Below are positions 9 to 62,460 of a stretch of 64,000 nt of DNA, one piece after another. Each line of letters opens with the position of its first letter. Within the stretch, counting starts at the first letter, position 1. Made by a program: the position numbers and the translations under genes. The DNA lies in the NCBI GenBank assembly GCA_964016885.1, contig OZ024743.1, positions 230,826,001-230,890,000 of the forward strand, read 5' to 3'. Source of the DNA: Eledone cirrhosa. Its lineage: Eukaryota. The notes beneath the pieces were generated by a model. The model did no database searches. It was given only the letters and a program-made list of their open reading frames with translations, and was not told the DNA's origin.

Positions 9-497
9 ATACATTATGAAGAGAGAAGAAACATTTAGATATAATTAGTAATAAAATGTATCATACCTAAACTGTTCCTAAATTACTCGACTACGTAGTT
101 TCGTGGCATAAACAAAAACAATATATCAAAGATATAGAGTCCTTGCGAGGTCTGCCGACTTATCAAGAGGATACCTCATTTTACTAGTCTCAAGAACGCG
201 TCTACACGACGTGAGAAAGAATCCCAAAAGGCGGAGGGGGAGATAGTCACGCGATATAACGGTCGAGAAACAGAGCTAAGCCTCTTATAACCACGAAGAA
301 AATACCACGGAGGCGGAGGGGTATTCATATCGAGGTATCCTCTTGATAAGTCGGCAGACCTCGCAAGGACTCTATATCTTTGATATATTGTTTTTGTTTA
401 TGCCACGAAACTACGTAGTCGAGGAATTTAGGAACAGTTTAGGTATGATACATTTTATTACTAATTATATCTAAATGTTTCTTCTCTCTTCATAATG

Positions 498-500
<3 letters not shown>
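9..500. repeat. ~170 bp inverted repeat (9-177 / 332-500) of an HHR-bearing pLTR/retrozyme-like element, ending in (TA)n
   Basis: 332-500 is the near-exact reverse complement of 9-177 (e.g. gaggtatcctcttgataagtcggcagacc vs ggtctgccgacttatcaagaggatacctc). Confidence 0.9.
338..425 (+). ncRNA. Type I hammerhead ribozyme, U3-A8 core variant (second copy on minus strand ~86-173)
   Basis: tcctc-TTGATAA-gt(c)ggca...tgccac-GAAA-ctacgta-GTC-gagga: stem I tcctc/gagga, stem II, palindromic stem III ACTACGTAGT, GUC cleavage triplet. Confidence 0.75.
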
Positions 501-520
<20 letters not shown>

Positions 521-528
<8 letters not shown>

Positions 529-1090
529 CGTAAAATAAAAAAATTATAGTAATTAATTCATTTACTTAAATTTCACTCCAACTAATTAGTTTCTGAAAGG
601 GGATATTCATAGTCTCCAAATGGAGACCATAGAGAATCCTTTCTTCATCAGAGAGTCATTCTCGGCTAAGATTCCTGACGATTCGTGGACACTGGGATCA
701 AATACAAAAATAATTTAGTGGACGGAAAAAAGCTAGCGTGGACTAAATCCCTAACCATTGAAAAGTTCACTGTCTTCCTGGTCAGTGGCAAATTCAAAAG
801 AATCAATCACGTGACATCGAGGTTAATCAGTGAGGTGTGGAATGTTAAAAAGACAGTAGCCAAGTTTAATACTATGAAACATAGTAGTAATTTAGGCAAA
901 TTTTTGCTCAACAAAATAATTTGGAGATAATTATAAAGAATTACTATATCTACCAACATATTTATACAGATGTATACTTACGCTAGCAAATATATAGGGT
1001 TTGTCTTAGTAACTTTGTGGTTCATTACAAAGAGATGCAGAACAATTATATAAAAGACGTAAAATAAGAAAATTATAGTAATTAACTCAT
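521..1090 (-). mobile_element. ORF-less ~530 bp HHR element (family A), ~1.1 units with ~40 bp terminal direct repeat, between (TA)n tracts
   Basis: aaaagacgtaaaataa(a/g)aaaattatagtaattaa at both 523-560 and ~1052-1088; homologous to 15522-17297 and 50472-51028. Confidence 0.85.
575..656 (-). ncRNA. Type I hammerhead ribozyme (family A)
   Basis: Minus strand: actct-CTGATGA-agaaagg...cctttca-GAAA-ctaatta-GTT-ggagt; palindromic stem III ACTAATTAGT. Confidence 0.8.
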
Positions 1091-1762
1091 ATATATATAT
1101 ATATATATTTATATAAAAGAAGTATCGTATAAGGTAATCCAAGTATCCAAGTCGAGGTTATGAGTAATCTGTACAGTGGATTTTGATAATTTGGCTCGTG
1201 ATAACAGTACTTAAAATCAAATGTCAAAGCAAGCACCGCATATAGCAATTGTTAGACACACCGAGCCAATTAAACATTTGTTAATACTTGGAATAAACAC
1301 TTATGTATAGCTTATCCGTGTTATTGTTCACTCCTTCATTATATATCTAAATCTCTCTCTCTATATATATATATATATGTGTGTGTGGGTGTAAGTGTAA
1401 GTCTGTGTGTGTGTGTATGTGTGTGTGTGTGAGTGTGAGTGAGTGTGTGTGTGTTTGTATGTGCATACACAGAGAAAGAAAGTGAAAGTGAGAGAGAGGT
1501 GGTGAGATCGAGAGGGAGAGTGTGAAATACACAATCCTGGATGATGTTAATAGCCAATTATTATTTAAAACACTACGCCCAATGTGATTATAATAAGCGA
1601 ATACCACTCTTTTAGTTTTATATAGAACCATTGGTTGCGCAGACACAAAACGGAATAAAAGCCTTGAAATACACAAATAGGTACATAAGCATACAAATGT
1701 TTATCTATCTATATATCTATTTACCCACCTAGTAGTCAGATGTTCGAAAACACAGGCACACC

Positions 1763-15485: not shown

Positions 15486-15526
<41 letters not shown>

Positions 15527-16480
15527 ACGTAAAATAAGAAAATTTCTTAAAAAAATTTTTTTATTTAAATTAACTTACTTAAATTTTCACTCCAACTACT
15601 TAGTTTCTGCAATGGGATAAAGACAGTTACGTAATGAACTGTTGAGAATTTCATTGCGTCATCAGGGAGGTCATTCTCAGCCGAGTCTCCAGGCGATGCG
15701 CGGACACTGGGGACTCATATAAAAATAATAATAATTCGGCAACTGGAACAGCTATCGAGGACTGGATTCCAGCCACTGAAAATTCTCACTGCCACTGATC
15801 ATATGGCCGATTCTAAAGAATCAATCACGTGACAGAGAGGCTAGTCAGTAGGAATGGGATGGTAAGATGACAGACGCCTACTAACACCCCCCCCCCCCCC
15901 CCAAAAAAAAAATTTAGAAGTGGTTTTGGCAGGTTTGCTCGACAAATCAGTGATTTGGAGATACATATAGATAATTTAATATATCTACTAACATAAGTGG
16001 AGTGAAAATTTAAGTAAGTTAATTTTTTTTTTTTTTTTTTTAAGAAATTTTCTAATTTTACGTCTTATATATTATTGTTCTGCATTCTCCTGCATTGAAC
16101 CACCTAGGTACTATGACATAACCTGTGTATTTGCTGGCATTAGCGTACATCTGTACGCTTATGTTAGTAGATATATTAAATTATCTATATTTATCTCCAA
16201 ATCACTGATTTGTCGAGCAAACCTGCCAAAACCACTTCTAATTTGTTTTGGGGGGGGGGGGGGTGTTAGTAGGCGTCTATCATCTTACCATCCCATTCCT
16301 ACTGACTAGCCTCTGTGTCACGTGATTGATTCTTTAGAATCGGCCATATGATCAGTGGCAGTGAGAATTTTCAGTGGCTGGAATCCAGTCCTCGATAGCT
16401 GTTCCAGTTGCCGAATTATTATTATTTTTATATGAGTCCCCAGTGTCCGCGCATCGCCTGGAGACTCGGCTGAGAATGAC

Positions 16481-16560
16481 CTCCCTGATGACGCAATGAA
16501 ATTCTCAACAGTTCATTACGTAACTGTCTTTATCCCATTGCAGAAACTAATTAGTTGGAG
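16481..16560 (+). ncRNA. Type I hammerhead ribozyme, canonical core (family A)
   Basis: ctcc-CTGATGA-cgcaatg...cattgca-GAAA-ctaatta-GTT-ggag. Confidence 0.85.
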
Positions 16561-17033
16561 AGAAAATTTAAGTAAGTTAATTTTAAAAAAAAAATGTTTT
16601 AATGAAATTTTCTTATTTTACGTCTTATATATTATTGTTCTGCATTCTCCTGCATTGAACTACCTAGGTACTATGACATAACCTGTGTATTTGCTGGCAT
16701 TAGCGTACATCTGTACGCTTATGTTAGTAGATATATTAAATTATCTATATTTATCTCCAAATCACTGATTTGTCGAGCAAACCTGCCAAAACCACTTCTA
16801 AATTTTTTTTGGGGGGTGTTAGTAGGCGTCTGTCATCTAACCATCCCATTTCTACTGACTAGCCACTGTGTCACGTGATTGATTCTTTAGAATCGGCCAT
16901 ATGATCAGTGGTAGTGAGAATTTTCAGTGGCTGGAATCCAGTCCTCGATAGCTGTTCCAGTTGCCGAATTATTATTATTTTTATATGAGTCCCCAGTGTC
17001 CGCGCATCGCCTGGAGACTCGGCTGAGAATGAC

Positions 17034-17113
17034 CTCCCTGATGACGCAATGAAATTCTCAACAGTTCATTACGTAACTGTCTTTATCCCATTGCAGAAAC
17101 TAATTAGTTGGAG
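17034..17113 (+). ncRNA. Type I hammerhead ribozyme, canonical core (family A, second tandem unit); third copy on minus strand ~15590-15669
   Basis: Identical motif to 16481-16560. Confidence 0.85.
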
Positions 17114-17625
17114 TGAAAATTTAAGTAAGTTAATTTTAAAAAAAAATTTTTTCTAAGAAATTTTCTTATTTTACGTCTTATATATTATTGTTCTGCATTC
17201 TCCTGCATTGAACCACCTAGGTACTATGACATAACCTGTGTATTTGCTGGCATTTGCGTACATCTGTACATGTTAGTAGATATATTAAATTATCTAGATA
17301 TATATATATATATGTAGATAAATCTACCAAAAGTTTACGGTAGTGTCCAATCCGTATGAAGAACTCAATGTAATCCGGATATCATGAAAAGAGAAGATGC
17401 ATTCAAAAACTACTTTCGGTGAAAAATAAACGGAAAACAGAGTCAAGATAAATTAATAAAATAATGAATAAACAAAGAAACAGTTCCTTATATTAAAAAA
17501 TTCATCATTTTACGATCGTTTCTAGGATATATATGTGTTAGAGTTGGTATGCATATTCTATAGATCTATGTACAATATTTATACAAAATAACAGAGGGAA
17601 TATACATACCTACACATATATATGC

Positions 17626-18018: not shown

Positions 18019-18119
18019 TACCCAATCTACTACCCTAAGTATTGAGTACTTTGGTGCGTTATGGTCCACCTGGTTCCTTACCACATTTCCTTCGCTATAT
18101 ATATATATATATATATACG

Positions 18120-20384
18120 GATTAGCAAATAATAGTTAAATGCAGTCCACTTAGGTGAAGTCCAGTTATGGTATTCCAGGTAGTGGATGATATTAACGCT
18201 TGGCTTGGTTTGTCTGAACAAGGCGTTTTTATAGTGATGCTGCGGGTATGCTGTAATTCCTATGTTGTAAACACTTGGAGTAATAATAAATCAGGAAAGA
18301 AGGTTTACATGGTTTGCTATACAAAAAGTTTTTAATCACATAGCTTACATTTGTTTCACTGAACTGGTATGTCTAGAGATCGCTATCCGCTTAATTTTGC
18401 GTTACTCGATCGCCAATACAGAATTATAACCAGTCAGATCTTCGGAGCATGCGAGAATGAAGAAAATACACAGGCAAGAAAAGAAAAGAAAATACAGGCT
18501 ACTATATGGAGTAGTGATGGCATTCAATTAGAACAATATCAACAATTACAACAATGCTATCAATAAACTATTTAAGGAGACCCTGACATTACTTAGGTGG
18601 GGGTATATAATGTATCTAATGTTACGGCGTGAAAACCAGCTGTCATAAGGCAAAAAGTATCGTAGTGTGTATCAATTTTAAATTATAAAGATAAGCTAGT
18701 TTTTACAGTCTTTCTCTTCATCTTCAACAGTATACATGAGTGTGACCACTGTCAAAGCTCAATAGTTGTAGAGTTAATACAGAGGTTAACGAATTAATAT
18801 ACACATATATCTACGCACACACACACACACACATACACATACACACACCCACACATATACATATATATAAATATATATACACATATATACACATGCATGT
18901 GTACATAGACACATACATACACATCAATATACACTCGTACAAAAAATATACATACATGCAAAGAGAAAAGCGTGCTAATTGTAATTATGGCAAAAAGAAG
19001 GTAAAGTAACATTGTAGTAGTGAAATGAGAAAAACTCGGATCTAGGATCAAATGATTGCAGCAGTTAAGAAGGAGTAAGATTGTTGGTAGATGAGCTACT
19101 TACAGACAATTGTGTGGTATAGACTTGTGAAGGATATAGTATACTTAATGAATATAGACTTAATGAATATAGACTTGTGAAGGATATAGTATACTCAATG
19201 AAAAACCGTGCACTTATGGGTTCCACCACCCTCGCCAGAAAAATATGGGAATTGAAGGACAGCAACACTAACTACACTATCAACTGGTCGAAGTTGTCGG
19301 CTGCTAAAACCTATAGTACAGGTATGTTCTATTGCGGGCTGTGTGATCTTGAGCTATTGTATATCCTTAGAAATGTTAAAAGGCTACTTAATAATAAGTT
19401 AGAAAGATCTATCTTCTGCAGACATAGAATAGCCACTAAATTCATAAGATTCAAACCTCCGTGAATCGAACCAACATAAGATAGCTTTAAATTAGGATAC
19501 CTACTACCCACAGAAATATATTCATTAAGTATACTATATCCTTCACAAGTCTATACCACACAATTGTCTGTAAGTACCTCATCTACCAACAATCTTACTC
19601 CTTCTCAGCTGCTGCAATCATTTGATCCTAGATCCGAGTTTTTCTCATTTCACTACTACAATGTTACTTTACCTTCTTTTTGCCATAATTACAATTAGCA
19701 CGCTTTTCTCTTTGCATGTATGTATATTTTTGTACGAGTGTATATTGATGTGTATGTATGTGTCTATGTACACATGCATGTGTATATATGTGTATATATA
19801 TTTATATATATGTATATGTGTGTATGTGTGTATGTGTGTATGTGTATGTGTGTGTGTGTGTGCGTAGATATATGCGTATATTAATTCGTTAACCTCTGTA
19901 TTAACTCTACAACTATTGAGCTTTGACAGTGGTCCCACTCATGTATACTGTTGAAGATGAAGAGAAAGACTGTAAACACTAACTTATCTTTATAATTTAA
20001 AATTGATACACACTACGATACTTTTTGCCTTATGACAGCTGGTTTTCACGCCGTAACATTATATACATTATATACCCCCACCTAAGTAATGTCAGGGTCT
20101 CCTTAAATAGTTTATTGATAGCATTGTTGTAATTGTTGTTATTGTTCTAATTGAATGCCATCACTACTCCATATAGTAGCCTGTATTTTCTTTTCTTTTC
20201 TTGCCTGTGTATTTTCTTCATTCTCGCATGCACCGAAGATCTGACTGGTTATAATTCTGTATTGGCGATCGAGTAACGCAAAATTAAGCGGATAGCGATC
20301 TCTAGACATACCAGTTCAGTGAAACAAATGTAAGCTATGTGATTAAAAACTTTTTTGTATAGCAAACCATGTAAACCTTCTTTC

Positions 20385-20388
<4 letters not shown>
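18120..20388. mobile_element. Penelope-like element remnant: GIY-YIG C-terminus (19195-19464, +) between ~870 bp inverted repeats (18291-19160 / 19521-20388)
   Basis: TTLARKIWELK..INWSKL..CGLCDLE..LLNNKLE..CRH; the two arms are near-identical reverse complements. Confidence 0.88.
20230..20335 (+). ncRNA. Type I hammerhead-like motif with C4 core and long stem II; mirror copy 18343-18448(-)
   Basis: gc(t/a)-CCGAAGA-tctgactggt...accagttcagt-GAAA-caaat-GTA-agc. Confidence 0.55.
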
Positions 20389-20457
<69 letters not shown>

Positions 20458-22182: not shown

Positions 22183-22809
22183 ATAATAAAGTACCAGTAA
22201 TGCACTGGGTAATTGCTGGCCTTGTGCCTAAAGTAGAAACAATTATCTTTCACTTTTCATAACATTGTCTAAAAAGGCTACAGAATGGATTTCCAAATAA
22301 GGGCACGAAAATTTAATGAAAACTTGTTCACGTGACAGCCATAATTTCATTTATAACCAACCAAAAAAAAAAGCCTTCGTGAGCCCCTTTTTTCAAGTAA
22401 AAAGAAATTCAAACACTCATATATGAAAAAACAACCTATGACAACCCCCCCCCCCTCTTATTTGAAGAACTATAGTAACGCGAACTGGCGCGAAATTTAT
22501 TATAATTTTTGACAAACCAATCAAATTACTTCTCGAAAAACGTGGCATTTCGAGCCACTTTTTCCATATAAAACAAGTAACATTCAGAGACCAACCAGAT
22601 GTGAGGAAAACCACAGACCCTCCATCTCAACTCACCTTTCGAAAAGCAGAAGAACTGCGAAACCGGTAAAGGAACCAAATAAATATATATATTTTTTTTA
22701 AAAATAAGACTCCAGTTGCATTTTCGATTTCATCTCTTTTTCTTTATACTTTCAATCGTGTAGGACACCTCGGTTATTTTTCAATTTGTAAAAAAACCTC
22801 ACTTTCTAA

Positions 22810-25800
22810 TTGATACCCACCACACGAAGACCGAAAATGCCACCAAAGTCTCAACAAAACAACAACTCACTGAACCAGGACATCTTAAATGAACTGAAAC
22901 AGATTTCCTCTAAACTATCAATTTTGACCAACAAAGTGGACCAAATACACATCTATAAAAAAGGACCCCACGAAGAAACAGAAAATACTCAAGAGACGAA
23001 TATTACTCCAGTATTAACTAAGCTAATCGAAACCATTGAAACAGCAATGCTCCAAAAGCTGGAACAACCGTTAGAACCCAATCTACGAGATGCCCACTCA
23101 GTGAAAAACACCCTAATCAACATATGGACTCGAAAGCTCCCAGCCCGCAAATTCGTCCTTTGGAATCTCCTAAAAAATAATGGCAAGGCAGACATATATG
23201 AAAAGTGGCTAAACTCTACCACAATCATCCTCCCCAAAAAACTCCAAATAAAACCCATCCCGAATGAACCAGAAAACCAACAAAGACTTAGGGAAAAGAT
23301 GGCGTTGGAAAAATTTAAAATAGAAATAGAACTGTTGTGATTAAGAGCCAACTCCAACGAAAAAAAAGTCAAGTCACTCGACCAACAGATGGACACAGAA
23401 ATCTCAAAGCACTCTGAAGGACTACTCTACAAAAAAACCCTAAAATTTTGTTAAGAAAACTGTGAAGATGAAGAACTAACATCCCCCCAGCGATGGGAAA
23501 AAAACGCCACCTGGTTCAACAACTACGAAATGGACTTCAAAAATGAACAACATACAGGTAACCCATTTTTAAAACAAACTAAAACTCACACACCACATGC
23601 ACAACAAATAAAAAAAAAGTAACAAAACGTCCAACATAACCCCAGCAAAACTATAACGATAATCCCAGAAACCATAGACAAAACTATAACCCTACTAATA
23701 AAAACCAAAGATCCCCGAACACAATGCAGGACATGATCCGAATATCACAACCCACACAAAAGCTATACCAAAACCGTAGACCCCTGCCCACACAGAGCCT
23801 GTTCCAAAACCGTAGATCCCAACCCACACAAAGGAACAAAATCTACAACCCGGACTATCAACAAACAGAACCTCAATACGTCCGAAACTTCTATACAAGA
23901 CCACACAACAACAAGGTTAATACCATTAGATATAATAATACCATTGAAAAAACATTCCAGAAAAATCATTTTTTAGACCAAGGCTACAGGACACACGACA
24001 CCCGGTGGCACAAAGCGATTTTGAAAAACCGAAAATAATTAACCTTTCAAATACAAACCTGTCAGCCCAACAAGTAAAAATTCTCTTCAAAGGACTGAAA
24101 TTCACACCAACACCACAATACTCTAACCCCAATGAGCTAAATGACGCTATCTCACACTTCTGTAGAAAATTACGTCTCACAGAGGAATTCTTTGATAAGG
24201 AGAATAACGACGAATCAATTGTACGGAATAAAAGCAGCTACAACCCAACAAAAGGTAGAAACAGAGTTCTGGACAAATTTTGTGACCACATAGCTACCAT
24301 TCCATACCATGAACTACCGCAACCTAAACCCAAACCCAACACGAGTCGAAGGGAAATTGAGATTATCCATGAACTAAAAACAATACGGACATTATAATTA
24401 AGGAAGCGGACAAGGGAAGTACTGTTGTCATTATGGAGGCTGAAAAATATAAAAATTCTATGTTCTCTCTCTTACAAAATACTAATTACTATGAAAGAGT
24501 AAAAAACTACCAGCAATCAAAAACAATGACCAGATTAAACACACTGATTTATCGATACCAGGAAGACCTAACTAAAAAGGAACGCAATTATTTAACACAT
24601 TTTGAATACAAAACCAGCAACATTTACGGACTTCCGAAGATCCACAAGTGTAAAATAATCAACGATGCCTATAAACAATCCACCTCAGCCTGCGTGAACA
24701 CACAGTACCCCACAGACCTTAAATTAAGACCAATTGTAGCGGGCCCACATTGTGAAACACACAGACTGAGCAATTTTATAGACATACTACTGAAACCAAT
24801 TCTGAAACACATACCAAGCCTTGTAATAGACGATCTGGACCTCCTAAACCACCTCCCCAAACATGTCAACAACGACACTAGTATTGTGTCTTTCGATGTA
24901 GTGAATCTCTACACAACGATCCCACACCAATACGGACTAGAAGCAATAGGATTCTGGCTAGAGAAATATCCCAATGAGATACCTGACAGAATAGAAAAAA
25001 GCTTCATCACCGAGGGATTAAAATTCATCTTACAGAACAACTTTTTTGATTTCGATGGCAATACTTACAAGCAAATATCGGAGAGTCCGATGGGTACAAA
25101 AGCCGCTCCAACTTATGCCAACTTAGTCATGGCATACTTAGAAGTCCAGATATATGAACAGTCCAAATCAAAATACGGATTGAACTTCCACAAATATTTA
25201 TCAGAGAATTGGAAACGCTACTTGGATGATTGCCTCATTCTTTGGTCCCACACACTCGACCAACTGAAGGATTTCAAAAACTTAATAAACGGCATCAATA
25301 ACCACATCCAATTCACAATGGAATACAGCCAAGATCAACTCCCATTTCTGGACATCTTAATCTTAAAAAAGACACAAATATTGAAACTGACATACACTAC
25401 GAACCAACAGATTCCAAACATACCTGCTATTCACCTCCAACCACCCAAAGCACACGAAGACGAACATTCCTTTTAACCTAGCAAGAAGATTTTGCACAAT
25501 TGTCTCCAATTATGAAACGCGAAATAAAAGACTTCAAGAATTAAAGGAAATTCTACTCGAAAGAGAGTACCCACTATTATTAATAAATAATGGATTAGAA
25601 AGGGCTAAAGCAATAGGCATTGATGAATTACGAAAACAGAAACAAATTCAAGGTACGTCCAATATTCTATCATATATCTCAACACACAACCCAAGAAATG
25701 CGGAAGCTTACAACACTATTCACAAGAACATCCTACTACTAAAACAAAACCCATGAATGAAAAAAGCCATTGAAACACACAAAATAATCAAAAGCAAAAG

Positions 25801-26267
25801 ATAACCGAAATCACTGAAAACATTACTCACCAATGCCAAATTACCTACCATAAACACACAATCAAGTGTCAAAAAATGTGGTCGCTCTAATTGTGGAACC
25901 TGCACTCACACCATTGAAGGCAACACGTATACATTTAAACCAGGACAAAATGTTACTGTAAAAAATCACTTCACTTGCTCATCAAAAAATCTACTTTATG
26001 CCATTAAATGTAAAGGATGCAATTAAGATTATATAGGACAAACTAAACTCACACTCAGAAACAGAATGACAGTTCATCGCCAACAATTACGAGATCCAAC
26101 CACGAGACATGTACCACTAAGGGTACATCTAGACATATGCGCAAGTAATAAGACACCCAAATTCCTTCCCATTTTAACTTTGCGCTAACAATACAACAGA
26201 ACAAATACGAATAAATAAGGAAAATATGTTTATTCAAAAATATAGACCAGCATTAAATATGGTTTAA
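22810..26267 (+). pseudogene. Disrupted PLE polyprotein: RT + C-terminal GIY-YIG endonuclease
   Basis: IINLS..L.KGLKFTPTP, ADKGSTVVIM, IYGLPKIHK, LRPIVAG, SFDVVNLYT, MGTKAAPTYANL, WKRYLDDC, LPFLD; EN KCGRSNCGTC..NLLYAIKCKGC..YIGQT..RMTVHRQQ; several stops and frameshifts. Confidence 0.9.
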
Positions 26268-26491
26268 TATACAATATGTCAACACCATAACATGCTAACC
26301 ATCCAAACAGACACATACACACACACATAACAGCTTCTACTGTAGAAAATAAAAACCCGAACTAAATAAACCTTAACATACGTTTGCACTGACAATACAA
26401 CAGAACAAATACGAATAAGTAAGGAAAATATATTCATTCAAAAATATTCCTACTAAAGGAATCATTTTTCTACACACACACACACACACAC

Positions 26492-26544
<53 letters not shown>

Positions 26545-27697
26545 TCTTCATCTTAACATGCTAACCATACTCCCACACACATAACACCCATACACACACA
26601 TAACAACCCGTACACCCACAACTCCCTCCCCCATTTCTACTAATAGAACCACTTTCCTACACACATATATACACACACACAAACTATATATTCTCTCCAT
26701 CTTAACATACTCGCACACACACATACCACCCATATACACACACACACAACTCCCTCCCCCATTTCTACTAATAGAATCATCTTCCAATACACACATACAC
26801 ACACACACACATACACACGCACACACACACACGCACACACACAAGCACACAAATAAACATACATATATTTACTTCAATAGAAAATCTGAACTCTGACACC
26901 CCAGCGAACTAACCATATTCACTGTACCTGAACAATTCTCCCAATCCCATTTCTCTTGACCACTATCTTTCCCTTGTCATAACATTCTCTATAAAGGCTA
27001 CAGAATAGATTTCCAAATAAGGGCGCGTAAATGTAATGAAAACTTGTTCACGTGACAGCCAAATTTCATTTATAACCAATCACATCACGTTTATTAAAAA
27101 AAAGCCTTCGTGAGCCACCTTTTTTTTAAGTAAAGAAATTCAAACACACACACACACACACAACACACACACACACACACAAGCACACAAATAAAAATAC
27201 ATATCTTTACTTTCTTTATTCAATAGAAAATCTGAATTCTGACACCCCAGCGAACTAACCATATTCACTGAACTAGAACAATTCTCCCATCCCTTTCTCT
27301 TGACCATTATCTTTCACTTATGATACAATTGTCTAAAAAGGCTACAGAATGGATTTTCACATAAGGGCGCGAAAATTTAATGAAAACTTGTTCACGTGAC
27401 AGCCATAATTTCATTTATAACCAACCAAAAATAAAGCCTTCGTGAGCCCCTTTTTTCAAGTAAAAAGAAATTCAAACACTCATATATGAAAAAACAACCT
27501 ATGACAAATCCTCCCCCCCTCTTATTTGAAGAACTATTGTACGCGAACTGGCGCGAAATTTATTATAAATTTTGACAAACCAATCAAATTACTTCTCGAA
27601 AAACCTGGCATTTCGAGCCACTTTTTCCATATAAAACAAGTAACATTCAGAGACCAACCAGATGTGAGAAAAACCACAGACCCTCCATCTCAACTCA

Positions 27698-27735
27698 CCT
27701 TTTGAAAAGCAGAAGAACTGCGAAACCGGTAAAGG
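27698..27735 (+). ncRNA. Minimal type I hammerhead in pLTR, U3-A8 variant (5' pLTR copy 22635-22672)
   Basis: cctt-TTGAAAA-gcag aagaa ctgc-GAAA-ccg-GTA-aagg; stems I, II and III all pair perfectly. Confidence 0.8.
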
Positions 27736-28202
27736 AACCAAATAAATATATATATATTTTTTAAAAATAAGACTCCAGTTGCATTTTCGATTTCATCTCT
27801 TTTTCTTTATACTTTCCCTCGTGTAGGACACCTCGGTTATTTTTCATTTTGTAAAAAAAACCTCACTTTCTAATATATATATATATACATATATATACGT
27901 GTTTTGCAACGGGTCACTTTGTGGCTCAATGAAAAGTTAATAAATTAAATAATCAGAGCTATATATCATAAAACATGTCTATAGAATCACCAGATAAAAT
28001 ATATACCATTTCCTCTCCCAATTAGCATAATTAACCATATAAAAAATCGAATAGACCGAGCTATAAGAATAAGGCTTCTATGAAGAAATCTCCAACAAAT
28101 AACCAAAACCAGCCCTTCGCGCCGGCTGCGACATAATATTTATCGAATAATTCGACAGCGCAATCGCCCAGATATACAGTCACATATATATATATACATA
28201 TA

Positions 28203-35262: not shown

Positions 35263-35524
35263 TATATATACGTTATTATTTAAACTATCACAAAATAAGA
35301 CCAGCGTGGTTTTTTGATTTTTATTATTGTAGGAGAGAAAAAGAAAAACTTGGAATGAACAATGCAGACAGTTCCATAGCTGACGGAATCAAGTCTAGAG
35401 ACTGCTTGCAAAATAAACAAAATATTTAGCATGACAACAATGATAAACTGATGGATCAACAAAAGATACATTCACATAGAATTGCTTATATCTCGGTGAA
35501 TATATATATATATATATTAGTATA

Positions 35525-35629
<105 letters not shown>

Positions 35630-35630
35630 A

Positions 35631-35668
<38 letters not shown>

Positions 35669-35673
<5 letters not shown>

Positions 35674-36020
35674 ATACTTTGGGAGGGTCATGTTGCCAAT
35701 AAGAAAATGGCGTAGGATAGAAGAAAGGAAAGGCACAGAAACGAAGAAAGAAATCCCCAGTCACTGAAGAGGTCACAGAGTGTGTGACGAAAGAACTATG
35801 ACTATATATATATAAACAACTATCTGGTTGTGGAACCAACCAACCAACCAGAAATTTATAAATTTGTAAATTTATAAATATTTAATAAATTAAATTGAAG
35901 TGAAAGCAACTGGTGCGTGTGTTTCTTATTGGCAACATGACCCTCCCAAAGTATAACAATATCGGTTTCAACACACGATTTCAGATAAAGAATCTTGCTA
36001 AACAAATTCAGAAACGAAAT
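35669..36020 (+). mobile_element. Solo pLTR fragment of the 54.5-58.3 kb PLE family with a short inverted 5' piece
   Basis: Matches 58030-58342; begins with inverted ttgttatactttgggagggtcatgttgccaataagaaa. Confidence 0.85.
35759..35803 (+). ncRNA. Minimal type I hammerhead in pLTR; mutated copies at 54697-54741(-), 58085-58128(+), 61681-61725(-)
   Basis: agtca-CTGAAGA-ggtcac agagtgt gtgac-GAAA-gaa-CTA-tgact. Confidence 0.8.
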
Positions 36021-36035
36021 ATATATATATAATTG

Positions 36036-36100
<65 letters not shown>

Positions 36101-36134
36101 GTATATAAATATATATATGTATATATATACATAT

Positions 36135-38625
36135 TCCTTAGTTAAGAAAAGACCACACATTTCACAAGGAAGACGTTATTTAAAGAAAGTTAACATAGTT
36201 TCAGTATATGTGAGGAATAAGGAGTGTAATTACAATTTAATGTAAGGAATAATAATAATAATAATAAGGTGTGATTATAATAATAAGGAGTGTAATAATA
36301 GTTTAATGTAAGGAATGCTAATAATGATAATAATAATAATGTCCCTTTACAATTGTTTCGCTACTCCATATAATATTTCTGGATCATTATTGATCTGATT
36401 CAGATGAAGATATGTAACTTAGGTAAAAAATGGAGCAGCTCTTCAGAACGTCAAAGTATAATGAAAATATTTATAAATATACTATGGAATAAGAAATATA
36501 AAGTAAGTAAAGAAAGAAGGTTACGTGAATGTAATATTGCATATATTGGTATTTCACGACGGTGTTCTGGATCTATTTAATTTCTGTTATAGGCAAGCAT
36601 TATTCATCTGTCGAAACTGTATTAAGCGTTGTCTGCCTATGCATAACAAGATGGCCGCCTGAGTATATTTACCTTACTAATTAGAGCTAGGTCTCAAGGA
36701 AATTAACTCCTTGAGTATTTTGAAATTTAGAATAGCTAAGAAATGCTAATGAGCTTAAGTGAGAGATAGTGTAGGGGAGGTAACTGATAATAATCCAAGT
36801 CATTGTTAAATATTTAACATGTTAGCTATATGTAAAGTTGAGATTATGATTATGTTGGGTGAAATATTCTATTGGCAAAGGAATTCGCCCTTCGATGTTG
36901 ACAGCTAATAGTTAACTCGTTTCTATCGTTTATAGGTAGTGGTCGTGATAGAGTTATGTAATAGGCCTCGGTAACACAGAGATCACAACAGTTTATTCGT
37001 CCATTGAACGCTTGGGCTCTAGTTAAGATATCCCATGTTAGTGAGTGTTCAGTGTTGGTTAATTTAAGGTTTTTAATGAGCCTAGCTAGAGATGTTGAAC
37101 ATCTATTGCTAGGGTCACGGAAGGGAAAAGAGTGCGCATTATAGCGTACCTTAAAAGGGTTAGAGGTAGAGTCAATATAGGAGCTAGTATGTGATGCTGT
37201 TTTAACAGTGCACCTATATACTATATTGGGTGTAAGGCATTGTCCGTTTAGTGGGCATGCGTTAGAGTAGCGGCAATTGTAATTACTGCTGCGGTTAGTA
37301 AGAGTAGAGTTGTTTAAACTATGCGGCTGGTGTGTGCTAGAAGGATTAGATGGGGGAGGTATGCTACTAGAGTAAGTATTTGTGTAGAGGCGTGGTTTAT
37401 TTGAGGGGGGTAGTGGTACCGTGGTGTGGGAGTTATACTGTCTTAGTTTATGATGGTTACTGAATGCGGTGTGGCTAGCTAGGTTAGGTGTTGTGGAGAA
37501 TGAGATTTTAATGTTGTTTTTATTAAATAGTTTGTAGTATCTATGGTTAACGGGGAAATGTTTAGATAGGATAGAGAAGAAGCGTTTAGGGATATTAGTG
37601 GCTACATTAGATGAGATAGGAGGAGGGGGGTGGGTTTAATCCAGGTGATATTTCTAGACCTATTTCTTCTAGGGGCACTAGTAGAGTTGGCAAGAGCTTT
37701 CATAGGGTTATTATTACCTGGGCGATTATTATTTGTCATCCATTGCTCGTTCCTATTCTAGGGTTGATTCTGAATCTGCTACTAGGAGTGGGAAGTAAGC
37801 CTCTACCACCATTACGGTTCCCTGTATAGGTGCTGTTACTTCTAAAATACCGGCGTATCTGGCTACATGCTATTGTATTTCTAGTGCTAACGTTAAACTT
37901 ATTATGGTTGTGGTGAAGTTCTGTGTTATGGCATTTAGGTATGTAATAAATGGACTGTTCATAACCAGATTCAGAAAGGGCCTTATTATAATATGGCGCA
38001 TGGTTCATAAACATGTCATCATTAGCGGATAGCATGGAGATCCTATAAGAGATATATTTAATGACTGCTCTAATTACTACCGGTGGATGGTTAGAGTGCG
38101 GGCTAATATATGTAAGTATTTCACCTGGTTTATGATAAGGGTAATATAAGTTATTGTTAAGAACTAGGGTAACGTCCAGGAAGCTTACTACCTTATGGTT
38201 CGGTTCGATGGTGATAGAGAGACCATTATTTTAAAAAGAATTATGTAATTGTTTTTTGAGCAAGTCGATGCCTCGATTAGTGCAATTGTGGATTGCAAAT
38301 AGGGCATCGTCCCTATATATTCCACCTTGCAGGGGTTGAATTTCAGCTTTGATGTTATGTAATAGGTAGATTCCAACTAAATCGGTGATTTGCGCAGAGT
38401 CGCTTGAGCCCATAGTGATGTCGAACCTGTCTATCCTGTCCTTTCTGGTCCAGCTTGAGCCATATAATTCAATGATGGTCTGCCTAGCCATAAGTATGAT
38501 GTCAATCTCGTTATTAGTTATGTCAGAGTTGGTGCTGGCTAGGGTTAATGCTTTGTTAAGCAGTGCCGAGGTCATTGAAGCGTTGAAGCTGTCAATGTCG
38601 AATTGGAGGAACCTCATCGATTCCT
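36135..38625 (-). mobile_element. 5'-truncated Penelope-like element (RT + GIY-YIG; possibly Hydra clade, tentative)
   Basis: RT: FLQFDIDSF, FDITMGSSDSAQITDLVGIYLL, GIYRDDA, FLDV, HSNHPP; EN: NCRYSNACPLNGQCLTPNIVYRC..YIDST..FKVRYNAH..WDIL..CDLC. Confidence 0.88.
36344..36450 (-). ncRNA. Type I hammerhead with long stem II in the PLE 3' region
   Basis: Minus: cgtt-CTGAAGA-gctgctcca...tggagtagc-GAAA-caatt-GTA-aagg. Confidence 0.75.
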
Positions 38626-38904
38626 GAAACTATGTTGACTTTCCTTAAATAACGTCTTCCTTGTAAATTTGTGGTCTTGTCTTTGCTTAACTAATAAATA
38701 TGTCCAGCTCTGTGCACCTAATCTCTGCATGAGCCCAACCATGAAGCTGCCTTCCACTGCTTATTGCACATTGAGCACATGCCTTTACGCTTTTGGCTTC
38801 TAACAAATTCACCAATCTCTCTTCTCCTCGCCTATATCCATCTCTCCCTTTAAGATTGGTTTACTCGTGAACTGTATATATATACACACACACACACTCA
38901 CACA

Positions 38905-41926: not shown

Positions 41927-44168
41927 TGTGTGTGTAGCAGAGTAATTTGTGGTAGAGGGATGGTCAGTAGGTCAGTAGGAATGTGTCTGTACGTGTGTGG
42001 GGGATATATTATCATGTTAAAAGATATTTTTCAGCTCCTGCCTTATACGGAGAAGTGTGTGTGTGTGTGTGTATATATGTCTCTTTGTATGTTAATGTAC
42101 GCGTGTGTGTCTGTGTGTATATAAGAGTGTGTGTGTGCGTATGTATGTGTGTGTGTGTGTGAGAATGTGTGTGTGTGGGTGGACCAGTATGTTTGTGATA
42201 CCGGTAAAAATGGTGTACATTATTCGATATTTTCAGTGAAAACGATTCTCTCAATAGAACATCAAACACCTTAATAATAAAAGATGTGAAATGATTTATA
42301 GTATTGGCATAATACCAAGGTGTGTGTGAGTGTGTCCAGATTGTACGTACTGCAAGGGGAATCCATTAGGCCTTGCCGTATTGGAATACTTGTGTACAAA
42401 TATGTATGTGCCCATCAGTGTGCAATGCATGTGTGCGTATATGTATGTGTGTGTATCGGCACGTTTATATCTATAGACATCAAAAGGTATGCAAATTTGT
42501 GTATATTTGTGTTGCACGATAGAACATGTGTGTTTACGTATGTCATTGTGTTTATATGTGGATAGAGATGTATGTAGGGTGTATGCTGATGTAGGTATGT
42601 ATGTTGACGTGTATATGTTGTGGGTTCGTCTTAGGGAGAAGTGTTTAGTCGGGGTCCGCATGTGTTAATAAAGTGAGATTCCTTGCTGATGCGCTGTGTG
42701 TGGGTGGCATTATCTTTAAATTTGTAGAGGGGAAAGATACTGAAGTTGGGATGATTTTGGGCGGCACAGGTATCAATGTGTTCACTCAGGGGTATTTTCC
42801 TGTATTCCCGTATTTTAATTTGGGATCTATGGACAGTCAGGCGTTGGCGGAGGCTGTTTTTGGTCTGGCCTATGTATCGTTCTCGACAACCTGAGCAAGT
42901 TAATACATATATTAGATTTTCTGATCCGCATGTGAAATTGTGTTTTACTATAAAACATTGTTCCTCTTTGAAATAGAATTCCGAAAACCTCTATTAGGTT
43001 GATGCATATGCCACAGTTGGGTCTATCGCATTTTTTTACTGTGGGTTTCGTTGTTGTGGTTGTCTGAACTTTGGCATGTGTTAGGATGTTTTTCATTGAC
43101 CTAGATTGTCTATTGCTCTTTATGATATCGTGTGTTCGTAGGATTTGGTTCATTCTATGGTCATTTTTCAACACAGGGATGTTCTGGAGGTATCAAAGGC
43201 CTCATTGTTGAGGGGGATGTGTGTGGAGATGTATGGAAGAGCTTTTAGTTTCGGTTGATTTACTTTAGGGTGTCTAAGGTTCTGAGTACTGAGTTTTAGG
43301 GCACGTTGGATTCCATTGTCAATTAGTGATGCAGGGTAATCCCTGCCTATGAGTCTGTCCTTTAGTTCTTGTAGCCGTAAGTAGCAGGTATTTTTATTGG
43401 AGACTATAGTACAGATTCTCTTGGCTAAGTTGTAGGGAATATTAATTTTAACGTGTCTAGGGTGGCAAGAGTTGAAAGGAAGATATTGCTTGGAGTCTGT
43501 GGGCTTGTAGTTTATGTCTGTTTCTATTTTTTTGTTATGGATCTTAATGAGGATGTCGAGGAAGGGGAGTTGTTGATGGCTGTATTCCATCGTGAAGTTA
43601 ATATTCGTGTTGAGCCCATTTATAAGAGTGTGAAATTCTTTAAGTTTCTCGATGTTTTCTTGCCAAAGGATGAAGCAGTCATCTAGATATCGCTTCCAGT
43701 TCCTTTCTATGTGTAAGTGGAGAGTGTTTCCAAATCTGTTTAGGACTTTAGTGTAGAGGGTGATTTCCAGGTATCCCATGACTAGGTTGGCATAAGTGGG
43801 GGATGTTTTCGTTCTCATAGCGGTCCCAGATTTCTGCCTGTAGGGATGTTATTGAAAACGAAGTAATTGTTCTCCAAGATAAATTATTTGTCCCTCTATC
43901 ACGAATTTTTTTTGATGCGTTGTGGGAGTTCATTGTGGTAATTATCCAGCCAGAATTGGATAGCTTCTATTCCTAGGTTGTGGGGATGTTGGAGTATAGG
44001 TTGACTACATCGAACGTCACTAGTAGGGTTTGTTCAGAAAGGGGCATATTAGGGAGGTGATTGAGCATATCTAGGTCGTCCCTTATATAGCTTTTGATGT
44101 GTTTGAGAAAAGGCTTGAGAAGGGTATCAATGAAGTTGCCAAGCGGTGAGTTTCGCAAGCGGGGCCTG
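41390..44168 (-). mobile_element. 5'-truncated Neptune-like PLE (RT + GIY-YIG, frameshifted)
   Basis: [84 protein letters not shown]. Confidence 0.92.
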
Positions 44169-50361: not shown

Positions 50362-51028
<667 letters not shown>

Positions 51029-54368: not shown

Positions 54369-54544
54369 AACCAAAGAATCGCTACTTACACGGTTAACGG
54401 GATATATATATATATATATGTATACGGAAAAAATGAAACGAAATTTCATTTCTCACTCTTAGTACGGCTGTTACTCGAATATAAGTATGTATACGTACAT
54501 ACATATATGTATACAGACGTACAGTAGTATGTATATATATATAT

Positions 54545-57500
54545 TGTTATACTTTGGGAGGGTCATGTTGCCAATAAGAAACACACGCACCAGTTGCTTT
54601 CTCTTTAATTTATTATAATAAATTTATAATAAATCTATAAATTTATAAATTTCTGGTTGGTTGGTTGGTTCCCCAACCAGATAGTTGTTTATATATAGTC
54701 ATAGTTCTTTTGTCACACACTCTGTGACCTCTTCAGTGACTGGGGATTCCTTTCTTTGTTTCTGTGCCTCTCCTTTGTTCTGTCCTACGCCATTTTGTTT
54801 CTGTGTGTGTGTTGTGTGCTCAGTCTGCGCATGCGCCACATCCGGGTGTCTGTGTGTGTTTATATTCATTTATTTATTTGTTTATATATATATAGAAAAA
54901 TCATTTACAAAACTACGCTGGAGCCTCAAAAACAAAAACAAAAACAAAAGCAACAATATACGCACACACATATACAACACACATCCCAACAACAACAGAC
55001 ACACAGACACAAACAACAATAACAACAACACACACACCAACAGCAACAACAATAACAACATACCCAGAAACAACAACAACAGACATGCAGACACAAACAA
55101 CAATAACAACACACACAACAACAATAACACACACGGAGACAACAACAACACACATCAACAACAGCACACATCAACAACAACAACACACACACATTCAATG
55201 CCTCTCACCACCACCACAATCTTAACAAACACACAGACACAGAAAACAAGTAATGGCACAGAAATCACAGAAATAAGGGAAAGTAATAGGATTAAAAAGA
55301 GAAGGGAGACTAAGGACAAAGAGAATAACCAAGACGAACACACAGACACACAAAATAGGGTAGATAACAACAATGAGCCAGTGGAAAGAGACAGGAGTAA
55401 TTATGAGAGACATAGAAACAACCATGAGGCTGTTGGTGGAAATAGAAATAGAAACAACACAACTAACAATAATAATAGCACTAGTACACTTAAAGCAGCA
55501 GCCTGGAACTCTACGTTTTATAATCCCTCCGATAAATCATTCGACCTGCGGCGAGTCCACGCCACGACTTTACCATTTAACAAACGCACGCAATTGCCGT
55601 CGCAGGTCGATGAACAAACAGAATCACAATTTAGTATAGCTAGATCCGAACTTAGAAATATTATAGAACAGTATAGCAAGAAGCATAATAAAATGGAGGC
55701 CCAGCAACTGGGAGAAAAATCTGCAAATGGCTTGCGTAAGCTCATGCAGCGCTCACGTAATGGAGAGATAGCATGCTTTCCAACAGACAAGTCTGGCAGA
55801 ATGTCGGTTGACAGCCTGCCAAACTACATCCAGGCAATGCAACCCCACATCACTAACACAAGAGAGGTAACACCACAGGAGCATGAGGATAGAGAAAAAG
55901 CCCTCAATGCCCATATGGTGATGTGGACGAATATAATGCAGCCCAACAAAATGACTGCCAACAACTTCCAGGCCTGGAAGAATGACGTGCCGGCGTTGTA
56001 TGGGCTTCGAAAAGACCATAACACGGGCTGTGACCCTGGCGCGGGACCACCAACACGGCCAGTCTGTGGAGCTAACATTGCTAGTAACTACAGACTGTCC
56101 TATTTCCTCTCCCTGATCATACGCCCCATCACTGAAATGTCCCCAGATGTATGTGACAGCACGGAGGACCTCCTCAGCAGAATCGGCGTGAGTAACCGAT
56201 CTGGGGACCTAACAAACTGTATAATAGGCAGTATGGATGTTGTGTCCCTGTATCCATCTATTGACGTGGATTTTGCTGTGGAGAAATGCGTAGAAATGAT
56301 CAGTGAGAGCAAGGTTGAGTTCCGTGGGATTGATACCAGTGAGCTGGGACTCCTACTTAAGCTTACCTATAGTAATAATTACCTAGACACATATGACCTT
56401 AGCAACCTGCGCCCTACAAGACCAGCAAGAGGCAGACAACCTACCATTACCTCAATGGCCAAGAAAACCCACACAGATAGATGGAACGGGTGGACCAGAG
56501 CCATACGGACACCCGAAAACCACGATGAACTGATGAAAATGATTGCACATGCGGTAGGGGCCAGCATAAAACTAACCCTTAAGGAACATATGTTCAAATT
56601 TAATGGAAAAACATATGCCCAAGAGGAAGGAGCAGCAATTGGTGTTAGCATTGCAGGCGACATAGCTAACTTATTCATGGTATGGTGGGACAGTAGACTT
56701 AAACTTAAACTTAAAGAACAATTAGAAGACCCCTTAACCCTGATAATGTACTCCCGCTACGTAGATGATATAAACATCCTAGTTAAGACACCCCCACTAG
56801 AGAACAGTCAGGAACTATAGAAAAACACAATGGAAAGCATCCAGCAAATAGAAAACTCCATCCACCGGAGCATTAGAGTTACTATAGACTACCCAAGTAA
56901 ACACCCCAACCATCGATTACCTGTACTAGACACAGAACTCTGGTTAGATACCATTAACAACAAAAAACAAATCCTCCATTCCCATTATGCCAAACCCATG
57001 ACTTCCAAACATCTGAACCACCGAAACTCGGCCGTTTCGGACCATACCAAAATCAACATACTGATTGCGGATTTGGTACGGGTGATGAGAAATGTGTCCC
57101 GCATGTGCAACCCCGAAGAACTAAAGAGACACATACAACACTTCATCCACCGTATGCAGTTCTCTGGCTACAATCAGAGAGATAAAATCACAGTGTATAG
57201 AGGAGCCAGAACCAAATGGGAAAAAATGGTAAATAATGACATAAATGGGACCTGCACCTTGTATAGGAGCAAATTTTGGAATAGAATAGAAAGAACTAGG
57301 AACAAGGCTAATAGAATAAACTCATGGTATGATAGCAATAAATACCAGAGTGTAATGTTCATCGATCCAACCCCTAGAGGTGAATTAGCTTACAAATTTA
57401 GAAGGGCCCTAAATAAACATAAACTCAATATTAAGATAGTAGAAAGACCAGATATCTCCGTAAAAACACTTATTAGCAAGACATAGCCTTTTCAAATACC

Positions 57501-58338
57501 CTCATGTATAGATAAGAAATGTATAACCTGTAAAATAAGCCCCCATATTAACTGTAAAACTAGAAATGTAGTGTATAGCATAATATGTACTGAAGGACAA
57601 TGTAGAGACAAAAATATAGTGTACATAGGTGAGACAGCTCGTAGTGTAGGGGAACGGATAAATGAACACTGGCGAGACCTTCAAGATAATAAAGAATCAT
57701 CTGTACTCTACCAACATGCTAAAATAGAACACAAGGGTAAATTAGAGAACATAGAAATAAAAATAGAATCTACACACAGAAAAGACGCAATGTTTAGACA
57801 AATTACAGAGGCAATAAACAAAAGAATTACAACCAAAATTAAATAGAAAATATGAGTGGAACAGCAACATCACAACTTACAATTAAGGACAAAATGAAAA
57901 CACACACACACATAGAACAAACAACCAACCAGTAACATGTAAATAAACAAATAAATAAATGAACATAAACACACACAGACACTCGGATGTGGCGCATGCG
58001 CAAACTAAGCACACAACACACACAGACACAAAATGGCGTACGACAGAACAAAGGAGAGGCACAGAAACAAAGAAAGGAATCCCCAGTCACTGAAGAGGTC
58101 ACAGAGTGTGTGACGAAAGAACTGTGACAATATATAAACAACTATCTGGTTGTGGAACCAACCAACCAACCAGAAATTTATAAATTTATGAATTTATTAT
58201 AAATGTATTATAATAAATTGAAGTGAAACAACTGGTGCGTGTGTTTCTTATTGGCAACAAGACCCTCCCAAAGTATAACGATATCGATTTCAATACACGA
58301 TTTCAGATAAAGAATCTTGCTAAACAAATTCAGAAACG

Positions 58339-58342
<4 letters not shown>
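54545..58342 (+). mobile_element. Penelope-like element (third RT type, possibly Nematis-like) with inverted 5' pLTR (54545-54885) and 3' pLTR (57885-58342)
   Basis: 54545-54885 is the reverse complement of 57945-58280; RT + GIY-YIG ORF between; (TA)n on both sides. Confidence 0.93.
54900..57885 (+). pseudogene. PLE polyprotein (Asn/Thr-rich N-terminal part, RT, C-terminal GIY-YIG) with two in-frame TAG stops and a terminal frameshift
   Basis: TDKSG, LYGLRKDH, TRPVCGA, GSMDVVSLYPSID, GAAIG, SRYVDDI, LPVLD, RMQFSGY, C..C..C..NC..NVVYSIIC..YIGETARS..ERI.EH; TAG at 56818 and 57484 (the latter is TAC in the 62.3 kb copy). Confidence 0.9.
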
Positions 58343-58377
<35 letters not shown>

Positions 58378-61282: not shown

Positions 61283-61508
61283 TTTACATCCATATTCTCA
61301 TTAATTGTTATACACTAAAACAACCACTATCATTGATATAATCATTGTCGGCATCAAAAAGCTTCACATCGATCTTATCATCGGCATAGCAATACACCCT
61401 TCTCCTACTTCAGCATAAATATATATATAATATATATATATAACTATATATATTATATTATATATATATATATATAATTATATACATAAATATATATATA
61501 TATATATA

Positions 61509-62452: not shown

Positions 62453-62460
62453 TGATATCA

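What the first reader, a model, noticed from the sequence alone, without database searches (positions are those of the whole stretch)
521..1090. Terminally redundant monomers of family A and covariation in stem II
Seen: the copies at 521-1090 and 50472-51028 are one ~530 bp unit plus 30-40 bp of repeat. In RNA sense they start ~17 and ~28 nt after the predicted cleavage site. Stem II is gaaagg/cctttc here but gcaatg/cattgc at 16.5 kb, and its apical hairpin is gtctcc/ggagac here but tttcc/ggaaa at 50.5 kb. Inference: the compensatory changes show the fold is selected, and 1.1-unit copies are what reverse transcription of a circular or multimeric RNA would produce.
Basis: partly seen in the sequence, partly recalled or inferred. 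Interest (0 to 1): 0.75.

Follow-up and report, generated by a model that had tools for sequence, protein, structure and literature searches.

The report
Two-armed Penelope-mobilised hammerhead retrozyme
These are copies of a non-coding 530-base repeat with a predicted self-cutting RNA fold, present thousands of times in this animal genome, whose fixed outer ends and mirror-image arms show it was likely copied by Penelope-type jumping-gene enzymes from a multi-unit or circular RNA.

Summary
Both copies are one 527-529 bp unit plus 30-41 bp, starting 19 and 28-30 nt after the predicted hammerhead cut. The family has at least 7,566 intact ribozyme cores. Stem II covaries: one pair occurs as A-U, C-G, U-A and G-C. 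The 1.1-unit form is rare, 3 of 137 position-ordered loci. Its redundancy comes from a fixed 3' end, not from a monomer with terminal repeats. 234 of 253 segments end at one of two sites (+60, +177 after the cut), nearly always against a microsatellite. Most loci are head-to-head pairs using one site each (76 against 3 same-site pairs). This is the Penelope 'tail' signature, and protein-coding Penelope-like elements in this window show it too. The two arms share private changes (10.0 against 0.87 per 1,000), pointing to one template. 5' ends are 3.2-fold enriched just after the cut, yet 175 of 230 arms read through it cleanly. A multi-unit template is supported; circle versus partly cut linear multimer is unresolved. 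No RNA data; cleavage untested; partner element not identified. The scan noted this architecture, and probably this family, earlier in this genome.

The parts
521..1090 (-). Family A single-arm copy: 529-bp unit plus 41 bp; 5' start at +19, 3' end at site a (+60)
575..656 (-). Predicted type I hammerhead: stem I 652-656 with 575-579; CUGAUGA 645-651; extra nt 644; stem II 638-643 with 595-600; apical hairpin 612-627; extra A 594; GAAA 590-593; palindromic stem III 580-591; GUU cut between 580 and 579
   Evidence: activity not tested
498..523 (.). (TA)n at the 3' end (RNA sense) of the copy; likely target
1089..1108 (.). (TA)n at the 5' end of the copy
15518..15997 (-). Left arm of a head-to-head family A insertion, 3' end at site a in (TA)n 15489-15524; predicted cut 15594|15593
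15998..17297 (+). Right arm: starts within 1 nt of the predicted cut (15999), runs about 2.3 units across cuts at 16557 and 17110, ends at site b before (TA)n 17298-17313; stem II gcaatg/cattgc
50472..51028 (-). Family A single-arm copy: 527-bp unit plus about 30 bp; 5' start +28 to +30; 3' end at site a; core mutated (CAAA, UUU), cut position 50530|50529
50368..50471 (.). (TA)n at the 3' end of the 50.5 kb copy

Best explanation
Family A is a non-coding, hammerhead-bearing repeat whose copies end at two fixed sites in (TA)n, likely a non-autonomous Penelope-like retroelement (retrozyme) copied from a multi-unit RNA, circular or only partly self-cleaved. Inferred steps: a Penelope-type RT/GIY-YIG protein binds the RNA and cuts both strands of a (TA)n target. 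Each cut end primes cDNA inside the RNA, one at +60 and one at +177 after the ribozyme cut. Both cDNAs run 5'-ward on the same molecule, usually through the ribozyme site, and stop at variable points. They are then joined to each other, giving a head-to-head pair; if only one is kept, a single arm results. The two window 'monomers' are single arms that began at +60, passed one ribozyme site and stopped 19-30 nt short of the next. In about a fifth of passes copying stops there, most simply because the RNA had been cut. Shown: copy number, two 3' ends and their pairing, shared template marks, 5' enrichment, covariation. Inferred: transcription, cleavage, the enzyme, RNA topology (my odds: circle 0.45, partly cut linear multimer 0.4, jumping between monomers 0.15).
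For: 3' ends: 129 at a, 105 at b, 19 elsewhere of 253 segments in 137 loci; 227 of 234 a/b ends abut a microsatellite. In the set not anchored on an end: 44 a, 48 b, 9 other of 101. Pairs: set 1 has 29 ab, 1 aa, 9 with another end of 39; set 2 (anchored on a) has 47 ab, 1 aa, 1 bb, 8 other of 57. Two RT/GIY-YIG-type elements in the window show the same pairing with ends about 60 and 168 nt apart. A purified Penelope-type protein cuts and extends both strands and starts at two internal RNA sites that define the genomic tail (PMC11167929). Arms of one insertion share derived bases at 10.0 per 1,000 sites against 0.87 between insertions; median divergence 3.6% against 7.2% in 54 pairs. 5' ends: 14 in -26..-1, 50 in +1..+26, 15 in +27..+52; 18.4 expected, p 8e-11; both arms stop there in 13 of 79 pairs, Fisher p 2e-5. 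178 of 209 crossings of the cut site are exact. -15..+8 is invariant across four subfamilies (23 of 23 columns; 68% overall).
Against: No autonomous element with a matching terminal repeat was found. Stops peak at +6..+18; only 2 of 230 are at +1, so trimming or stalling must be invoked. The enrichment rests mostly on joint stops: it is weak in single arms (8 of 55, 4.2 expected, p 0.06) and in arms whose partner stopped elsewhere (15 of 117, 9.3 expected, p 0.04). Survival falls from 54 of 213 (first to second pass) to 5 of 54 (second to third), p 0.01, which a circle copied at a constant stop rate would not give. One 13-unit array is a mosaic of units 1.3-10.8% apart, so not every array came from one circle. 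The core is atypical (extra bases at both ends of stem II, GUU triplet, 3-bp stem III), and RNAalifold prefers a fold that sequesters the core.
Confidence: 0.8

Rival explanations
1. Same element and enzyme, but the template is always a linear read-through multimer; no circle is involved and the ribozyme only trims some 5' ends.
For: In vitro a Penelope-type element used uncleaved RNA as its main substrate (PMC11167929). Survival drops after the second pass. Large mosaic arrays that could act as sources exist (L260). Joint stops after the cut fit a linear 5' end.
Against: Successive units in an arm are as alike (median 3.2%, 58 arms) as the two arms (3.6%) and share derived bases (119 shared), unlike the mosaic array. 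Most loci have under two units per arm, so linear sources would tend to shrink copies each generation (inference).
Confidence: 0.4
2. The excess of 5' ends after the cut site reflects RT stalling at the folded hammerhead or neighbouring hairpin, or annealing of two cDNAs at local palindromes, not RNA cleavage; the ribozyme may be inactive in the copied RNA.
For: Peak at +6..+18, just 3' of stem I. An AAAATTTT palindrome sits at +6 in two subfamilies and two junctions overlap exactly there. Stops are also raised inside stem II (23 in 476-500).
Against: The invariant 12-nt palindrome just before the cut and the invariant TCACGTGA show no joint stops, while 13 pairs stop jointly just after the cut, including subfamily S2 whose representative lacks the +6 palindrome. 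One window arm begins within 1 nt of the cut.
Confidence: 0.25
3. Head-to-head pairs arise by fold-back (self-priming) of a single cDNA, and 1.1-unit copies by later deletion or unequal crossover of satellite arrays.
For: Self-priming was proposed for Penelope inverted junctions (PMC3846280 passages). 21 of 79 pairs have 5' ends within 15 nt, 9.2 expected. L260 shows array-internal reshuffling.
Against: 58 of 79 pairs have unrelated 5' ends, and either arm can be the longer. DNA-level reshuffling does not explain two fixed 3' ends paired one of each.
Confidence: 0.07

Closest known systems
Metazoan non-LTR retrozymes (Cervera and de la Pena 2020, PMC7229834: parts 2-3 of 6, Discussion and passages read; Li, Clavereau and Pollet 2026, 10.64898/2026.07.22.740005: parts 1-3 of 5 read)
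   Same: Non-coding tandem unit with one type I hammerhead per unit, palindromic short stem III, low GC, thousands of copies, Penelope-like elements proposed as mobilisers.
   Different: Unit of 520-570 bp, above the 170-400 nt given for invertebrates. Long stem II with apical hairpin, short stem I, no canonical loop 1/loop 2 layout. Mostly two-armed insertions with fixed ends rather than long arrays; the parts read do not describe insertion ends. Circular RNA not shown here.
Penelope-like element terminal repeats with 'tail' (Frangieh 2024, PMC11167929: parts 1-2 of 4; Craig 2021, PMC8557442: passages and section 11; Arkhipova 2013, PMC3846280: passages)
   Same: Two internal 3' ends downstream of a hammerhead, tail at one end only, inverted 5'-truncated partner, (TA)n targets.
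   Different: Tail is about 117 nt, not 30-40. No ORF. The whole element is the repeat unit.
Minimal hammerheads of metazoan PLEs (Cervera and de la Pena 2014, PMC4209133: part 1 of 4)
   Same: Short helix I, long helix II, unpaired base 5' of stem II, palindromic helix III suited to dimer folding, opposite-strand pairs 100-700 bp apart.
   Different: A further unpaired A before GAAA, a 51-nt stem II domain and a GUU triplet. I found no such variant in the passages of PMC3088659 returned; that is not a full survey.

Membership tests
Non-LTR retrozyme | Type I hammerhead core in each unit of a short tandem repeat | tested here: met
   CUGAUGA in 95 of 98 instances (one per locus), GAAACUAAUUAGUU in 85 of 98; 96% of cells paired in stems I-III; 88 distinct complete units of 520-570 bp. 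The pattern used to collect instances already demanded parts of the core.
Non-LTR retrozyme | Non-coding, dispersed in many copies | tested here: met
   No ORF of 100 aa or more overlapping 521-1090; 7,566 core matches; no Penelope ORF found continuing from an arm among the mapped loci.
Non-LTR retrozyme | Canonical hammerhead with loop 1-loop 2 tertiary layout | tested here: not met
   Stem I of about 5 bp, stem II domain of about 51 nt with extra bases at both ends; closer to the PLE-type variant. Mussel retrozymes also lack the contacts, so this is not decisive.
Non-LTR retrozyme | Self-cleavage of the transcript | not testable with these tools
   Indirect only: 5' ends enriched after the predicted cut.
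Non-LTR retrozyme | Expressed as linear and circular monomer RNA | not testable with these tools
   No raw RNA run was available to lay. Units fold better than shuffles as circles (z -2.8 to -9.3 sense, -1.4 to -3.5 antisense, 12 shuffles each).
Penelope-like element insertion | Two alternative 3' ends (tail) with the tail at one end | tested here: met
   234 of 253 segments; 76 ab pairs against 3 same-site pairs.
Penelope-like element insertion | 5' truncation with adjacent inverted copy; microsatellite target | tested here: met
   96 head-to-head pairs in 137 loci; 227 of 234 ends in microsatellite; 44 of 96 junctions overlap by 2 nt or more.
Penelope-like element insertion | Sequence homology to the terminal repeat of an autonomous RT/GIY-YIG element | tested here: inconclusive
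   None to elements in the window or next to arms; no short-stem relative. Only a short motif resemblance 3' of a start site of the 18-20 kb element. Genome-wide search was limited to the top 40 candidates per query.
Plant LTR retrozyme | LTRs with type III hammerheads and 4-bp target duplication | tested here: not met
   Type I topology and tandem units; ends lie in (TA)n, so no duplication can be read.

The most novel reading that the evidence does not exclude
The genome keeps a record of both fates of the ribozyme. A Penelope-type dimer primes both ends of one DNA break on a single retrozyme RNA at two sites 117 nt apart. On a ligated circle both polymerases roll through the junction; on a cut molecule both run off together at the ribozyme-made 5' end. 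This would be sequence evidence for circle-templated, double-primed retrotransposition, with an unusual hammerhead variant that is active in vivo.
Probability: 0.35. Interest if true: 0.7.

Novelty: new variant of a known kind. Interest (0 to 1): 0.48.

Why it matters
How animal retrozymes move is proposed but, in the papers read, not shown: circular RNA copied by a Penelope-type enzyme. This family gives exact predictions (start sites +60 and +177, one per target strand, one template, run-off after the cut) that an existing in vitro Penelope assay could test. It also explains the Penelope 'tail at one end only' as one start site per strand. The kind of element is known and the scan has met this architecture repeatedly in this genome, which limits surprise.

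Tried and rejected
Rfam scan: no match. Top-score DNA searches are biased toward full-length copies, so they were not used for end statistics. A-to-G editing marks: no strand excess in shared or private changes (ratios 0.6-1.1). An A>C excess came largely from a few sites near +6..+8 and site b and is treated as an alignment effect. Search for a short-stem relative in an autonomous element: 48 matches, nearly all deletion derivatives. tblastn of window Penelope frames against fetched loci found neighbours but no arm continuing into an ORF; one query was off-frame. Sequencing runs: no RNA holder listed; the three runs of unrecorded kind cover flanks as well and say nothing on expression. R-scape was not available; replaced. 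Two-type covariation alone was rejected as evidence: 524 of 17,578 variable column pairs show it. Apical hairpin covariation could not be counted reliably because the register shifts between subfamilies. My note that 9-500 was a two-armed element was wrong; it is MITE-like. Literature searches for this mechanism or family returned no description of it; an octopus repeat annotation has no 'hammerhead' or 'ribozyme' in its main text. Supplements were not read, and bioRxiv supplements are closed; they may list this family.

Full report
Observation. The copies at 521-1090 and 50472-51028 are 85% alike and each consists of one unit (529 and 527 bp) plus 41 and about 30 bp. On the minus strand each carries a type I hammerhead layout: stem I, CUGAUGA, one extra base, a 6-bp stem II with a long interior and apical hairpin, one extra A, GAAA, a palindromic 3-bp stem III and GUU followed by the predicted cut. 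Counting from that cut, the copies start at +19 and +28 to +30 and end at about +60 in (TA)n. The 50.5 kb copy has a damaged core. The third locus, 15518-17297, is a head-to-head pair whose right arm begins within one base of the predicted cut. Rfam does not recognise the motif.

Family size. The window is G000:C4:230826001-230890000 in a 3.0-Gb genome. Earlier scan notes call the host a cephalopod; I did not test that. Exact matches: 7,566 for the full core pattern, 8,080 for an 18-mer upstream of the first end, 1,795 and 1,064 for two end-plus-TA patterns, with reversed controls at 0. 88 distinct complete units fall into four main subfamilies and two singletons.

Covariation. Among 98 instances, one per locus, stem II haplotypes are GAAAGG/CCTTTC 23, GCAATG/CATTGC 18, GTAAGG/CCTTAC 18, GTAATG/CATTAC 18, GGAATG/CATTCC 2, with 19 others mostly single mutants. 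On 50 of these sequences (45 loci, 5 window copies; 47 distinct) 96% of cells pair, against 30-47% for slid controls; two of 14 pairs show changes on both sides, both in stem II. Since copies are related, I ran an all-pairs control on 74 units: of 17,578 variable column pairs, 524 show two pair types, only 5 show three, and the stem II pair is the only one of these at 100%. The stretch -15..+8 is invariant across four subfamilies. So the fold is under selection in the source lineages, on the strength of a few events. Stems I and III hardly vary and give no covariation. RNAalifold prefers pairing the core with stem III, which may mean that a lone ribozyme is mostly off.

Ends. I sampled loci in positional order on contig C1: 60 of the 63 loci among the first 100 of 8,080 matches, and 79 further loci from the first 100 of 1,795 site-a ends. 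Two near-duplicate loci were dropped, leaving 137 loci and 253 segments. 3' ends fall at site a (+60; 129) or site b (+172 to +185 by subfamily; 105), 19 elsewhere; 227 of the 234 abut (TA)n or (TC)n. 96 head-to-head pairs were found: 76 ab, 2 aa, 1 bb, 17 with another end. In set 1, which was not anchored on an end, the figures are 29 ab against 1 aa (p 3e-8). The redundancy is therefore a by-product of a fixed internal start and a variable stop.

5' ends. The edge is sharp: 14 in -26..-1. Both arms stop there in 13 of 79 pairs (Fisher p 2e-5). The longer invariant palindromes nearby show no joint stops. Against a pure run-off reading: the peak is +6..+18, and single arms show only a weak excess (8 of 55, p 0.06). 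175 arms cross the cut site, 223 crossings in all, and 178 of 209 crossings scored are exact, 10 differing in length, which disfavours error-prone jumping between cut monomers (inference).

One template. Arms of one insertion differ by a median 3.6% against 7.2% to other loci of the subfamily (54 pairs scored, 48 lower; 17 pairs with different best subfamily and pairs with short overlap were skipped). They share derived bases at 10.0 per 1,000 sites against 0.87 between insertions. Successive units within an arm differ by 3.2% (58 arms). This fits one RNA molecule, or RNAs from one source locus. It does not separate a circle from a homogeneous linear multimer. Survival drops from 54 of 213 to 5 of 54 between passes (p 0.01), and one 13-unit array is a mosaic; both weigh against a simple endless-circle picture.

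The likely machinery. The window holds RT and GIY-YIG fragments (3 of 10 frames hit Pfam). The element at 54.5-58.4 kb and its relative at 35.7 kb form pairs with two ends about 60 nt apart. The element at 18.1-20.4 kb has ends 168 nt apart; in 20 top-scoring loci, 4 had a partner arm whose end was in view and all used the other site. Its C-terminus carries CxxC and CxH motifs like those described for the Hydra clade. Frangieh et al. (PMC11167929) showed that a Penelope-type protein cuts and extends both strands, starts at two internal RNA sites that bound the tail, and does not need ribozyme cleavage. Craig et al. and Arkhipova et al. describe inverted partners, a tail at one end and (TA)n targets. 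Cervera and de la Pena proposed circle-templated copying by such elements, and Li et al. link retrozymes to Penelope terminal repeats by phylogeny. I found no autonomous partner with a matching repeat.

Verdict. A real, abundant, Penelope-type non-autonomous hammerhead element; a variant of known animal retrozymes with a larger unit, an atypical core and a long tail. The two-armed reading was reached before I consulted earlier notes; those notes show that the scan met the same architecture in other families, and probably this family, in this genome. Interest 0.48.

Noticed in passing
window 9-500 (and L273:754-1246): MITE-like element with 169-bp terminal inverted repeats (99% alike), duplicated in tandem just left of the window, very high depth in public runs; the family A copy sits in the TA run at its right end.
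   Followed up: partly
window 54541-58371, 35500-36081, 61415-62456: Penelope-like element with RT-like and GIY-YIG frames and a small hammerhead core (CTGAAGA...GAAA) in its terminal repeat; head-to-head pairs with two ends about 60 nt apart.
   Followed up: partly
window 18118-20393: Young (98% identical, 2,499 candidates) Penelope-like family with Hydra-like endonuclease end and two ends 168 nt apart; sequence just 3' of its first end resembles that 3' of family A site b by a short motif. Candidate partner class, untested.
   Followed up: partly
L260 (G000:C1:152492674-152499362): 13-unit family A array ending at site b, units 1.3-10.8% apart and mosaic; possible source locus or product of unequal crossover.
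   Followed up: partly
site b ends in L121-L259: (TC)n runs of 5-24 units occur at 21 of 72 terminal b sites scored and at 0 of 58 internal ones: possibly reiterative copying at priming, or later slippage.
   Followed up: partly
window 22239-27874, 42466-43848, 36100-38629: Further decayed Penelope-like elements, the first with 570-bp direct terminal repeats.
   Followed up: no
family A unit, about +295: An 8-nt palindrome TCACGTGA (E-box-like; label recalled) is kept in all five subfamily representatives; possibly part of an internal promoter.
   Followed up: no
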